Source: Escherichia coli
GTDB taxonomy: Bacteria; Pseudomonadota; Gammaproteobacteria; Enterobacterales; Enterobacteriaceae
Strand: one strand, 5' to 3'
NCBI RefSeq assembly: GCF_030013205.1
Contig: NZ_CP122648.1
DNA: 64,000 bases
Shown: in pieces, positions 47,046 to 47,840 of the stretch
Layout: each line of letters begins with the position of its first letter
Position numbering within the stretch: position 1 is the stretch's first letter
Made by a program: the position numbers and the translations under genes
The notes under the pieces: model-generated
Databases searched by the model: none
What the model was told of the DNA's origin: nothing
Seen by the model: only the letters and a program-made list of their open reading frames with translations

Positions 47046-47573
47046 ATGTTTATGAGCAAGGCAGAATATGCCAAACACAAAGGCGTAAGCCGCCAGACAG
47101 TTTACGACTGGATCGAGAAAGGCGAAGTGGTCATGTCCGGTAAAAAAATCGATGTGGAAGCGACAGAGCAGCGGAACAGCCCACCAGCACAGGGAAAAGA
47201 CACAGTTTCTGAAATGTGGCCAGAGAGAACGCTGGAAATGACGTGGGGCGAGTTCTGGAAAGCAGTTAAGGCCAGAGACGGTAAAATCCCTGCACCAGTA
47301 ACGGACAATGACATACAGCAGCGTGTACAGGATGCAGCCGGGGAACTATGCTGTGAAGTGCAATTTCTTGATGATGGTGCTATCTGCCTTGAGGATTATG
47401 CTGGGCAATATTACTTTGAGCAGTATGATTTTCGGGAAAATGCCAGGCTGGCAATTCGTATGCTGCGTTGTGAGCTCTGCTATGTTGCAGGTGATTGTCC
47501 CGATGAGCTGGATAACTGGAGTGAAGCCGGACTAAACGCCCTGGCTGAGTGGGAAAAATCAGGCCATCAATGA
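47046..47573 (+). CDS. HTH DNA-binding protein, candidate small-terminase-like / packaging-redirection factor
   Basis: N-terminus MSKAEYAKHKGVSRQTVYDWIEKGEV resembles phage Nu1/excisionase-type winged HTH; followed by a repeat array. Confidence 0.5.
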   Translation: MFMSKAEYAKHKGVSRQTVYDWIEKGEVVMSGKKIDVEATEQRNSPPAQGKDTVSEMWPERTLEMTWGEFWKAVKARDGKIPAPVTDNDIQQRVQDAAGELCCEVQFLDDGAICLEDYAGQYYFEQYDFRENARLAIRMLRCELCYVAGDCPDELDNWSEAGLNALAEWEKSGHQ

Positions 47574-47578
47574 CCTCA

Positions 47579-47840
47579 AAAAGTGTCAAGTTGAGCAGCT
47601 TGCCAGGTTGACACTTTACACTCTGAACGCGAAAAAGTGTCAACCTCGCTGTAAGCCCCGCCATTACTGGCCTTTCGCCAGATTTACCACGTCAAAAAGC
47701 CGAAAAAATCGCGAAAAGTGTCAAGTTGCCATGCTTAGAAATGCTAAGGTTTGATAAGGTTTTTCGCGAAAAAGTGTCAAGTGTGTCAACCTGCGATGTT
47801 AAGATTTGTTAAGGTCTTAAGCCGGAAAGTGTCAACCAGC
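47579..47840. repeat. array of seven GTGTCAA(C/G) repeats (candidate packaging / protein-binding site)
   Basis: copies at 47583, 47608 (inverted), 47637, 47718, 47774, 47783, 47829, most preceded by GAAAAA. Confidence 0.7.

What the first reader, a model, noticed from the sequence alone, without database searches (positions are those of the whole stretch)
47046..47840. HTH protein followed by seven GTGTCAA(C/G) repeats: candidate packaging-site module
The 175-aa protein begins with a helix-turn-helix resembling phage Nu1/excisionase-type DNA-binding domains. The 260 bp after it contain seven copies of GTGTCAA(C/G), six direct and one inverted, most preceded by GAAAAA. A small-terminase-like DNA binder next to an array of its probable sites is how phage packaging sites are organised. 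In satellites this is where helper packaging is redirected to the island.
Basis: partly seen in the sequence, partly recalled or inferred. Interest (0 to 1): 0.7.

Follow-up and report, generated by a model that had tools for sequence, protein, structure and literature searches.

The report
Satellite island's likely DNA-packaging site
At the end of a small phage-parasite island in E. coli, a DNA-binding protein gene is followed by an array that alternates the island's own repeat with short copies of a conserved sequence found inside the small-terminase gene of a family of E. coli phages, which suggests (but does not prove) that the island gets itself packed into those phages' capsids here.

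Summary
Seven of the window's eight GTGTCAAS copies lie in 47583-47836, just after a 175-aa protein whose first ~45 residues form an Nu1/Xis-type winged helix-turn-helix.

The locus is the right end of a 14.7-kb P4-integrase/AlpA/RepA-type satellite-like island inserted in comM of E. coli ETEC4079. The gene plus array is a conserved module, always the last large gene of such islands, in 166 of 5426 complete E. coli genomes and in at least eight other enterobacterial genera. The HTH (residues 1-41) and the repeat (A = AAAGTGTMAAS) stay nearly constant, while the integrase, replication protein, origin iterons and cargo vary.

After most A sites sits B (nnTAAGAWWTnnTAAGGTTT). The same sequence lies inside terS of Rac-SA53/pPE4-like myophages, whose genes also have homologues among the island's cargo. 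There it covers the codons (L/I)RNxKV and shows almost no synonymous variation. Array-to-terS exact matches reach 17-24 nt, only at that spot.

Best reading (about 0.55): a packaging-initiation module, with A sites for the island's adaptor protein and B sites imitating the helper's terS-embedded, probably pac, element. Nothing has been tested experimentally. The protein is not an Rpp or TerS family member. This is a new variant of a known kind.

The parts
47046..47573 (+). Gene for a 175-aa protein. It has an N-terminal Nu1/Xis/MerR-type winged HTH (residues 1-45), a disordered linker (46-57) and an alpha/beta C-terminal domain (58-170) with no solved-structure relative.
47580..47590 (+). A site 1 (AAAGTGTCAAG). 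It forms an inverted pair with A site 2.
47607..47624 (-). A site 2 (GTTGACACTTT, inverted) overlapping a GTGTAAA-type variant (CTTTACACTCT).
47634..47644 (+). A site 3 (AAAGTGTCAAC).
47649..47680 (+). Element C (CTGTAAGCCCCGCCATTACTGGCCTTTCGCC). It follows an A site and is conserved in 6 of 13 arrays from different genera. Its role is unknown.
47715..47725 (+). A site 4.
47731..47768 (+). B unit 1, ATGCTTAGAAATGCTAAGGTTTGATAAGGTTTTTCGCG ('GC' and 'GA' words). It shares 16-nt and 17-nt exact matches with the RNxKV-coding core of Rac-SA53-like terS genes.
47771..47790 (+). A sites 5 and 6, overlapping in tandem (AAAGTGTCAAGTGTGTCAAC).
47796..47822 (+). B unit 2, ATGTTAAGATTTGTTAAGGTCTTAAG ('GT' word). 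This is the same word as in terS of the ETEC1748-type prophage (CTGTTAAGAAATGTTAAGG).
47826..47836 (+). A site 7.
47841..47858 (+). B unit 3, CCCTAAGATTTCCTAAGG ('CC' word, as in terS variants that encode LLRNPKV). Its 3' end supplies the Shine-Dalgarno sequence of the next ORF.
47855..47865 (+). A-like variant (AAGGTGTAAAT) overlapping the ribosome-binding site of the 59-aa ORF.
47867..48046 (+). 59-aa ORF (WP_016262941.1, PHROGs of unknown function). Genes at this position vary between islands, so it is probably not a core part of the module.

Best explanation
The stretch 47046-47866 is the packaging-specificity module of a helper-dependent satellite island. The proposed mechanism has four steps.

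1. After induction, the island's long rightward operon makes the 175-aa protein.
2. The protein's invariant wHTH binds the A sites (AAAGTGTMAAS) on replicated island DNA.
3. About two helical turns downstream of most A sites lies a B element. B copies the cis element that Rac-SA53-like helper phages carry inside their own terS gene, which is the likely recognition part of their pac site. The helper small terminase is therefore recruited to island DNA, possibly helped by the protein's C-terminal domain.
4. The helper TerL then starts headful packaging of island concatemers. The array may at the same time draw terminase away from the helper.

Shown here: the clustering of A sites; the tight linkage of the gene and the array across genera; the sequence identity between B and the terS core; and DNA-level constraint on that core in the phages.

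Inferred: that the protein binds A, that TerS binds B, that the terS core is pac, and that packaging starts here.
For: Island context. The island spans about 34205-48910 in comM. It has an integrase, an AlpA-like HTH protein, an AntA/B antirepressor, Icd-like proteins, and a RepA helicase followed by its own iterons at 40506-40800. It has no capsid, terL or tail set. Elements of this kind are helper-mobilised, and how they are packaged is unknown (EcCIMP1, PMC11773190).

Module linkage. Homologues of the protein in Pantoea, Serratia, Enterobacter, Raoultella, Lelliottia, Pseudocitrobacter and Mangrovibacter are always the last large gene of such islands. In 16 of 17 loci A sites follow within about 650 bp. 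In IMG/VR, 45 of 66 stretches holding an A-A pair have the gene directly adjacent. Residues 3-41 are nearly invariant, whereas the C-terminal domain falls to about 20% identity.

The array is not tied to integrase or replication. Integrase-arm-like repeats lie elsewhere (34299-34357 and 48779-48837). Origin iterons differ between loci along with the replication protein. A second island in the same strain, at tRNA-Pro, has a different integrase but an identical right half.

Link to terminase.
- The island cargo (DUF2213, a 205-aa protein and a 679-aa tape-measure/transglycosylase) has homologues in Rac-SA53 and pPE4.
- Rac-SA53 terS contains GATAAGAAATGATAAGGTTTTTCGTG.
- In 63 distinct terS genes of that family, the codons R-N-x-K/R-V-Y/F show almost no synonymous diversity: AGA 61/63, AAT 62/62, AAG 34/34, GTT 62/62. 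Flanking codons score 0.3-0.7, and neighbouring Arg codons are CGN.
- 56 of 74 IMG/VR hits to the B pattern lie in long ORFs; most of these are TerS HTH regions, at the codons (L/I)RNxKV.
- The longest exact array-to-terS matches are 24 nt (L022), 19 (L013), 18 (L007) and 17 (window). All are at that core and in the same orientation. The background is 11-13 nt.
- The four B words in the window (GC, GA, GT, CC) are the four word variants seen in this terS family.
- A sites are absent from 374 kb of terS loci.

Co-residence. 12 of the 20 genomes with the best island matches are among the top 60 holders of the Rac-like terS-terL-portal module, which only 84 of 5426 genomes carry at 80% coverage or more.

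Precedent. The P22 pac consensus AAGATTTATCTG resembles B. From my own knowledge, pac sites of P22 and SPP1 lie in or at terS.
Against: - No experiment of any kind bears on this locus.
- The pac site of Rac-SA53-like phages is not known, so the constrained terS core could serve another DNA- or RNA-level purpose.
- ETEC4079 has no prophage at the Rac attachment site (uspF-ttcA), and it is not among the 60 best holders of the helper packaging module.
- Several arrays (L004, L015, L016-L021) carry other B words or none. No matching terS was found for them, and a scan for the GATCCG variant gave no terS link.
- The centre of B units 2 and 3 is ATTT, not the AAAT that the phage codons require.
- The protein has no TerS oligomerisation core. 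Its best structural hit is an excisionase, and its C-terminal domain has no informative relative.
- The co-residence figure is not corrected for phylogeny (many genomes are porcine ETEC), and it is biased towards islands that carry Rac-like cargo.
Confidence: 0.55

Rival explanations
1. Operator array of a transcription factor. In this reading the wHTH protein is a MerR/Xis-type regulator. It binds the A sites to control, or to insulate, the variable accessory genes downstream (here the 59-aa ORF), or to regulate its own operon. The B elements would then be sites for a second, host or island, factor.
For: PGAP names some homologues 'MerR family transcriptional regulator', and one UniRef entry is named 'Repressor'. 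The fold equals BldC, Xis and Cox, which are regulators that bind direct repeats. The last B and A-like elements overlap the ribosome-binding site of the 59-aa ORF. The genes downstream of the array are variable, as in an accessory hotspot.
Against: No sigma-70-like promoter is found anywhere in the array. In Pantoea a terminator-like hairpin separates the array from the next ORF. Seven to ten sites over 280-650 bp is far more than an operator needs. This reading does not explain why B equals the constrained core of a phage terS gene, in four variants. The downstream genes differ between loci while the array stays the same.
Confidence: 0.15
2. Interference device without packaging. The multi-copy B elements act as DNA decoys, or as RNA sponges if transcribed. 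They titrate the helper's small terminase, or whatever factor acts on the terS-embedded element, and so lower helper yield. The island itself would be transferred some other way or not at all.
For: B copies match the terS core in several variants. The array lies in the 3' untranslated part of the island's long operon, so it is probably transcribed. Satellites commonly interfere with helper packaging (Rpp, PMC6739421; Gpi of PLE).
Against: This reading does not explain the island-specific A sites, or the strictly linked DNA-binding protein placed at a fixed 17-19 bp register from B. In known systems, titration and redirection are two faces of one mechanism (PMC6739421). No Rfam family or stable RNA signal is present.
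Confidence: 0.1
3. Excision, replication or partition accessory. The protein is a recombination directionality factor, or a ParR-like or Rep-accessory protein, and the A sites are its architectural sites.
Against: The array lies about 1.07 kb from the attR core (about 48908-48917). The repeats shared by both island ends, which look like integrase arm sites, are a different sequence. The same array serves islands with different integrases and att sites. The island already has an AlpA-type protein next to int. The origin iterons sit next to the replication gene and vary with it, while A does not. No partition NTPase is encoded.
Confidence: 0.07
4. Evolutionary debris. The B elements are decayed fragments of a terS gene that the satellite once carried or captured by recombination, with no present function.
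For: The non-coding tail of the related element EcCIMP1 holds an ~80-nt frame-disrupted stretch that is 75-81% identical to the HTH-coding part of Terminase_2-type terS genes. This shows that terS fragments do end up in such tails.
Against: In this module the B units are short (about 20-26 nt), multiple, of different variants, each in register with an A site, and kept across genera whose protein is only 33-36% identical. That pattern indicates selection rather than decay.
Confidence: 0.05

Closest known systems
Rpp (redirecting phage packaging) proteins and the altered cosB of E. coli cos-type PICIs such as EcCICFT073 (PMC6739421, PMC6092414)
   Different: There is no detectable sequence similarity. 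The C-terminal part is an alpha/beta domain, not the helical dimerisation domain of Rpp. The island has no lambda-type cosN. The candidate helper has a headful-type Terminase_2-like TerS rather than Nu1. The site is an array that mixes the island's own sites with helper-derived elements.
PLE of Vibrio cholerae: GpsA/GpsB packaging specifiers plus mimicry of the ICP1 pac site (bioRxiv 10.1101/2024.04.22.590561)
   Same: Both combine satellite-encoded specificity factors with a short sequence that imitates the helper's pac site.
   Different: The proteins, the host and the helper are unrelated. PLE has a single 14-bp mimic, whereas here there are several variant copies interleaved with a second repeat.
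SaPI small terminase with a SaPI-specific pac site (as summarised in PMC6092414)
   Same: In both, a satellite protein gives the helper TerL a new DNA specificity in a headful system.
   Different: SaPI TerS is a true TerS homologue. The protein here is not, and the array keeps helper-type elements.
Lambda gpNu1 bound to the R elements of cosB (as described in PMC6739421)
   Same: Both have a wHTH of the same fold and several short recognition elements. In both, one element is inverted relative to its neighbour and the elements lie next to the gene for the binder.
   Different: There is no cosN, no TerL partner gene and no recognisable IHF site, and the sequence motif is different.
P22 pac site inside gene 3 (consensus AAGATTTATCTG, PMC11226127)
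   Same: Both are short A/T-centred recognition sequences embedded in the terS coding region. The string AAGATTT is shared with B units 2 and 3.
   Different: The TerS family is different. That the Rac-SA53-type element acts as pac is only inferred.

Membership tests
Rpp (PICI redirecting phage packaging protein) | Sequence homology to RppA, RppB or RppC | tested here: not met
   phmmer and a family-profile hmmsearch against all PDB chains, which include 6hn7 RppC, gave no Rpp hit at E<=10.
Rpp (PICI redirecting phage packaging protein) | wHTH N-domain followed by a helical C-terminal dimerisation domain (about 139 aa in total) | tested here: not met
Rpp (PICI redirecting phage packaging protein) | Lambda-like cosN and cosQ in the island | tested here: not met
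   No match to GGGCGGCGACCT with up to 2 mismatches lies inside 34205-48910. There is no P2/P4 cos either.
Rpp (PICI redirecting phage packaging protein) | Physical complex with the helper TerS | not testable with these tools
   This needs two-hybrid, pull-down or co-crystal experiments.
Phage small terminase (TerS) | N-terminal HTH DNA-binding domain | tested here: met
Phage small terminase (TerS) | Central oligomerisation core and a TerL-binding C-terminus, with the gene next to terL | tested here: not met
Excisionase / RDF (Xis, AlpA, Cox; Pfam HTH_17) | wHTH fold of the Xis/MerR type | tested here: met
Excisionase / RDF (Xis, AlpA, Cox; Pfam HTH_17) | Binding sites within the att arm next to the core, specific to one integrase | tested here: not met
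   The array is about 1.07 kb from the attR core. The same array occurs with a different integrase at tRNA-Pro. The repeats shared by attL and attR are a different sequence.
Replication origin iterons | Repeats next to the rep gene that co-vary with it | tested here: not met
   Iterons of that kind lie at 40506-40800 and differ between loci along with the replication protein. The A motif is constant across RepA, P4-alpha and DUF927 replicons.
Headful pac site (helper-type) | Sequence shared with the helper's own recognition site, which is typically inside terS | tested here: inconclusive
   B equals a synonymously constrained core inside Rac-SA53-like terS. That this core is the phage's pac site has not been shown.
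Headful pac site (helper-type) | Terminase cleavage and unidirectional packaging series starting at the site | not testable with these tools
   This needs virion DNA end mapping or transduction assays.
PICI-like phage satellite (the island as a whole) | Integrase, AlpA-type regulator, own replicon with origin, 10-20 kb in size, no full virion gene set | tested here: met
   The same layout is seen in other genera.
PICI-like phage satellite (the island as a whole) | Helper-induced excision, replication and transfer | not testable with these tools
   Shown only for the related but distinct element EcCIMP1 (PMC11773190). EcCIMP1 lacks this protein, and no GTGTCAA-type array was seen on reading its non-coding tail.

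The most novel reading that the evidence does not exclude
The array is a multi-helper 'pac library'. Each B unit imitates the pac variant of a different Rac-SA53-like phage (GC, GA, GT, CC words). In those phages the recognition site is written into the very codons of the TerS recognition helix (RNxKV). The variable dinucleotide of both half-sites therefore tracks the codon of residue x, which would make a self-encoded specificity code that the satellite reads out with a dedicated adaptor protein bound at the neighbouring A site.
Probability: 0.25. Interest if true: 0.85.

Novelty: new variant of a known kind. Interest (0 to 1): 0.68.

Why it matters
Islands of this layout are common: this module alone is in 3% of complete E. 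coli genomes, including O104:H4 outbreak strains. They are scored as uncertain 'type C' PICIs because no packaging determinant is recognisable, and how EcCIMP1-like elements are packaged is an open question (PMC11773190).

If the model is right, it would have several consequences.
- It would supply the missing packaging determinant for a whole family.
- It would point to Rac-SA53-like myophages as helpers.
- It would locate the probable pac site of those widespread prophages.
- It would describe a third way of redirecting helper packaging in Gram-negative satellites: an adaptor protein combined with several variant pac mimics.
- It would give a compact cassette (about 820 bp) that could be tested directly for making plasmids transducible.

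Tried and rejected
- Integrase arm sites: rejected. The repeats common to both island ends are TTGTTCCACGTTGT...GGTGTAGTCA, not GTGTCAA.
- Replication origin: rejected. Separate iterons lie next to repA and vary with the replication protein.
- Sigma-70 promoters using TTGACA (the reverse complement of the A site) as a -35 element: no promoter-like site in the array. A sigma-54 or IHF/Fis reading by eye did not fit either.
- Structured RNA: no Rfam hit.
- Lambda cosN and P2/P4 cos: absent from the island.
- Direct homology of the protein or the array to anything in 50,697 phage records: none.
- Homology to helper TerS proteins: only a marginal HTH-level similarity.
- EcCIMP1, an experimentally mobilised relative: it has a different last gene and different tail repeats.
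- Scan for the GATCCG-type B variant: the hits are unrelated environmental ORFs with no terS link.
- Search for a resident helper in ETEC4079: the Rac attachment site is empty, and the strain is not among the best 60 holders of the helper module. The rest of its genome was not searched.
- EcCICFT073: I tried to find it to compare gene order, but the stretch I fetched was a lambdoid prophage, and I did not pursue it.

Full report
**Observation.** The pattern GTGTCAAS occurs eight times in the 64-kb window. Seven copies lie between 47583 and 47836, six direct and one inverted, and the eighth is in 23S rDNA. Shuffles of the window give 3.7 copies per 64 kb, or about 0.015 expected in that 254-bp stretch. 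The extended consensus is AAAAGTGTCAAS. Two GTGTAAA variants lie at 47614-47624(-) and 47855-47865. The ORF 47046-47573 encodes 175 aa and is annotated in RefSeq as a hypothetical protein. Its first ~42 residues match a small-terminase PHROG (phrog_57, E 5e-7). They match excisionase/Cox PHROGs and Pfam HTH_17 more weakly.

**Context.** The window is the chromosome of porcine E. coli ETEC4079. A 14.7-kb island interrupts comM. The comM 5' piece ends near 34205 and the 3' piece resumes near 48910, with AATAGCGGAT at both junctions. The island encodes:
- a tyrosine integrase, an AlpA-like HTH protein, an AntA/B antirepressor and Icd-like proteins;
- a RepA-family helicase followed by its own iterons (GCAAAAGTGGGGAG, 40506-40800);
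- ProQ/FinO, PerC and three cargo genes;
- then the 175-aa protein, the array and a 59-aa ORF.

The island has no capsid, terL or tail set. This is the layout of PICI-like satellites. A related E. coli element, EcCIMP1, is mobilised by a helper phage, but its packaging mechanism is unknown (PMC11773190).

**What the repeats are not.**
- Integrase arm sites. A 59-nt repeat shared by the two island ends (34299-34357 and 48779-48837: TTGTTCCACGTTGT...GGTGTAGTCAnTGGTGTAGTCA) is the likely set of arm sites. The GTGTCAA array is about 1.07 kb from the attR core.
- Origin iterons. The iterons sit next to the replication gene and differ between loci in step with it: GTGGGGAG here, TATCCCG in Serratia, TTATCTACC in Pantoea.
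- Promoters or known RNAs. No sigma-70-like promoter lies in the array and no Rfam family matches.
- Known cos sites. No lambda cosN or P2/P4 cos is present in the island.

**A conserved module.** The protein family is small and confined to Enterobacterales. A profile search of 1.84 billion representative proteins with the C-terminal domain found only 34 proteins, those inspected having the same small architecture. In Pantoea, Serratia, Enterobacter, Raoultella, Lelliottia, Pseudocitrobacter and Mangrovibacter, the gene is always the last large gene of an island with a P4-type integrase, AlpA and a primase or helicase. Cargo and replication proteins vary between these islands. In 16 of 17 loci, A sites cluster within about 650 bp after the gene. 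The exception looks truncated.

A scan of IMG/VR for two A sites 25-55 bp apart found 66 stretches, and 45 of them have the gene directly adjacent. Residues 3-41 of the protein are nearly invariant and the A motif is essentially unchanged, whereas the C-terminal domain falls to about 20% identity. In E. coli the module is in 166 of 5426 complete genomes, always chromosomal. ETEC4079 has three copies. One is in a second island at tRNA-Pro that has a different integrase but an identical right half. The array therefore goes with the protein and not with the integrase or the replicon. That the protein binds A is the natural inference but has not been shown.

**The protein.** AlphaFold models are confident (pLDDT 89 for the whole protein and 94.5 for residues 58-175).

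The protein is not a member of the Rpp or TerS families.

**The second element, and the link to terminase.** After most A sites, with the GTGTCAA start 17-19 bp from the centre of the next element, lies a 10-bp tandem element B, nnTAAGAWWTnnTAAGGTTT. It is present in arrays from several genera. In the window the B units are:
- 47731-47768 (GCTTAG/GCTAAG plus GATAAG);
- 47796-47822 (GTTAAG twice);
- 47841-47858 (CCTAAG twice).

The island's cargo points to a phage family. The DUF2213 protein, the 205-aa protein and the 679-aa tape-measure/transglycosylase have homologues in the myophages Rac-SA53 and pPE4. The terS gene of Rac-SA53 (a TerS by phrog_51, E 9e-40 for the pPE4 orthologue) contains a complete B element, GATAAGAAATGATAAGGTTTTTCGTG. 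It lies at the codons LIRNDKVF of the TerS HTH.

Three checks show this is more than coincidence.
1. In a protein-based, pattern-independent sample of 63 distinct terS genes of this family, the codons R-N-x-K/R-V-Y/F show almost no synonymous variation: AGA 61/63, AAT 62/62, AAG 34/34, GTT 62/62, TAT 40/40. Flanking codons have diversities of 0.3-0.7, and neighbouring arginines use CGN. That is the signature of a DNA-level element embedded in the gene.
2. Of the 74 IMG/VR hits to TAAGAAATNNTAAGGTTTT, 56 lie in long ORFs, most of them at this motif of TerS HTH regions. The dinucleotide before the first TAAG equals NN in 59 of 74 hits, against 1 in 16 expected. Many of these hits are related to each other.
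3. The longest exact matches between satellite arrays and this terS family are 24 nt (L022), 19 (L013), 18 (L007) and 17 (window). All are at this core and in the same orientation. The background elsewhere is 11-13 nt.

The terS variants of the family carry GC, GA, CC and GT words. The GT word occurs in the prophage of ETEC1748 and related porcine ETEC. These are the same four words as in the window's array. The A motif, by contrast, is absent from 374 kb of these phage loci.

**Co-residence.** The Rac-like terS-terL-portal module is present at 80% coverage or more in only 84 of 5426 E. coli genomes. Twelve of the 20 genomes with the best matches to the island's right end are among its top 60 holders. 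This is suggestive, but it is not corrected for phylogeny, and it is biased towards islands with Rac-like cargo. ETEC4079 itself has an empty Rac attachment site and is not in that top list.

**Interpretation.** From my own knowledge, pac sites of headful phages commonly lie in or at terS (P22 gene 3; SPP1 gene 1). The P22 pac consensus AAGATTTATCTG (PMC11226127) resembles B. Known satellites redirect helper packaging in several ways:
- with their own TerS (SaPIs);
- with an Nu1-like protein that pairs with the helper TerS on an altered cosB (Rpp, PMC6739421);
- with specifier proteins plus a pac mimic (PLE).

The most economical reading of the anatomy here is a packaging-initiation module. 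The island's wHTH adaptor sits on the A sites, and the helper TerS is recruited to the adjacent B mimics. The island is packaged, and the helper is probably deprived of terminase. I put this at about 0.55.

The steps not shown are: that the protein binds A, that TerS binds B, that the terS core is pac, and that cleavage or packaging starts here.

Weaknesses are as follows. Several arrays carry other B words, or none, for which I found no phage counterpart. The centre of B units 2 and 3 is ATTT rather than AAAT. The role of the C-terminal domain is unknown.

**Rivals.**
- An operator array for the variable downstream genes (0.15). It has no promoter support and does not explain B.
- A pure decoy or sponge that interferes with the helper (0.10). 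It does not explain A and its protein.
- An excision, replication or partition accessory (0.07). This is contradicted by the array's position and by its independence from integrase and Rep.
- Inert terS debris (0.05). This is contradicted by conservation and register, although EcCIMP1's tail does hold an ~80-nt terS-like remnant.

**Verdict.** The module is a new variant of a known kind, satellite redirection of helper packaging. It is widespread, unannotated and directly testable.

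Noticed in passing
window 42935-46994: The island's cargo consists of homologues of helper-type virion genes. Two ORFs (42935-43528, annotated NUDIX, and 43593-44276, DUF2213) match the C-terminal and N-terminal parts of one 545-residue phage family (phrog_6216, rac43-like, next to the capsid genes). They are followed by a rac52-like 205-aa protein and a 679-aa tape-measure/transglycosylase that is 89% identical over residues 1-501 to that of pPE4. These could be dominant-negative or capsid- and tail-remodelling interference genes.
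   Followed up: partly
window 47649-47680; also L006, L007, L010, L013, L022: A third conserved array element, C (CTGnAAGC-N5-RTTRCTGG-nTTT), follows an A site in 6 of 13 arrays from different genera. It is absent from the Rac-like terS loci. Its function is unknown; it could be a cleavage region or a host-factor site.
   Followed up: partly
Rac-SA53-like terS genes (L003:3059-3084, L253 terS, L174-L252): Inside the phage terS genes, the two 6-nt half-sites of the embedded element tend to carry the same variable dinucleotide (GA/GA with LIRNDKV, CC/CC with LLRNPKV, GT/GT with LLRNVKV). Only the second half-site is tied to the codon of residue x. Rare codons (ATA, CTA, AGA) are used to achieve this. 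The pattern suggests that the site and the recognition helix that may read it are encoded by the same bases.
   Followed up: partly
NZ_CP122643.1 1812034-1824368 (L100): ETEC4079 carries a second island at tRNA-Pro with a different integrase. The tape-measure, HTH-protein and 59-aa ORF products and the 821-bp module are identical to those of the comM island, and the ProQ-to-DUF2213 genes are close variants. A third copy of the module lies elsewhere. The right halves have evidently been exchanged or homogenised between co-resident islands.
   Followed up: partly
L009:4315-4394 (-), EcCIMP1 of E. coli MP1: The non-coding tail of the experimentally mobilised satellite EcCIMP1 holds an ~80-nt, frame-disrupted stretch that is 75-81% identical to the HTH-coding part of Terminase_2-type terS genes (Enterobacter phage CobraSix, Leptolyngbya phages). 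It also holds a triple 10-bp repeat, GTTATGGATT. This may be the same principle (a terS-derived pac region in the satellite tail) in a different family. No match to its helper Kapi1 was seen at this sensitivity.
   Followed up: partly
L038:11176-11930 (IMGVR_UViG_3300035187_000636), also L079, L086, L088, L090, L091: Metagenomic phage contigs carry about 23 copies of AAAGTGT(C/A)AA in about 750 bp, roughly 1.2 kb upstream of a divergently placed terS-terL-portal operon. They have no homologue of the 175-aa protein. This may be an unrelated iteron or terminal-repeat array that happens to share the motif.
   Followed up: no
window 48047-48900: About 850 bp lie between the 59-aa ORF and the resumed comM, with no annotated gene. 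The stretch holds a perfect 9-bp-stem hairpin at 48154-48175, and relatives break off at different points here (query ends at 48098, 48234 and 48341). This mosaic tail region was not analysed.
   Followed up: no
PP818812.1 (L002): The record 'Actinobacillus phage vB_Apl-pPE4' has a terS that is 97.6% identical in DNA to an E. coli prophage (strain HNSQ2209, pig) and is arranged like an E. coli Rac-type prophage ending in an integrase. Its host assignment may deserve a second look.
   Followed up: no
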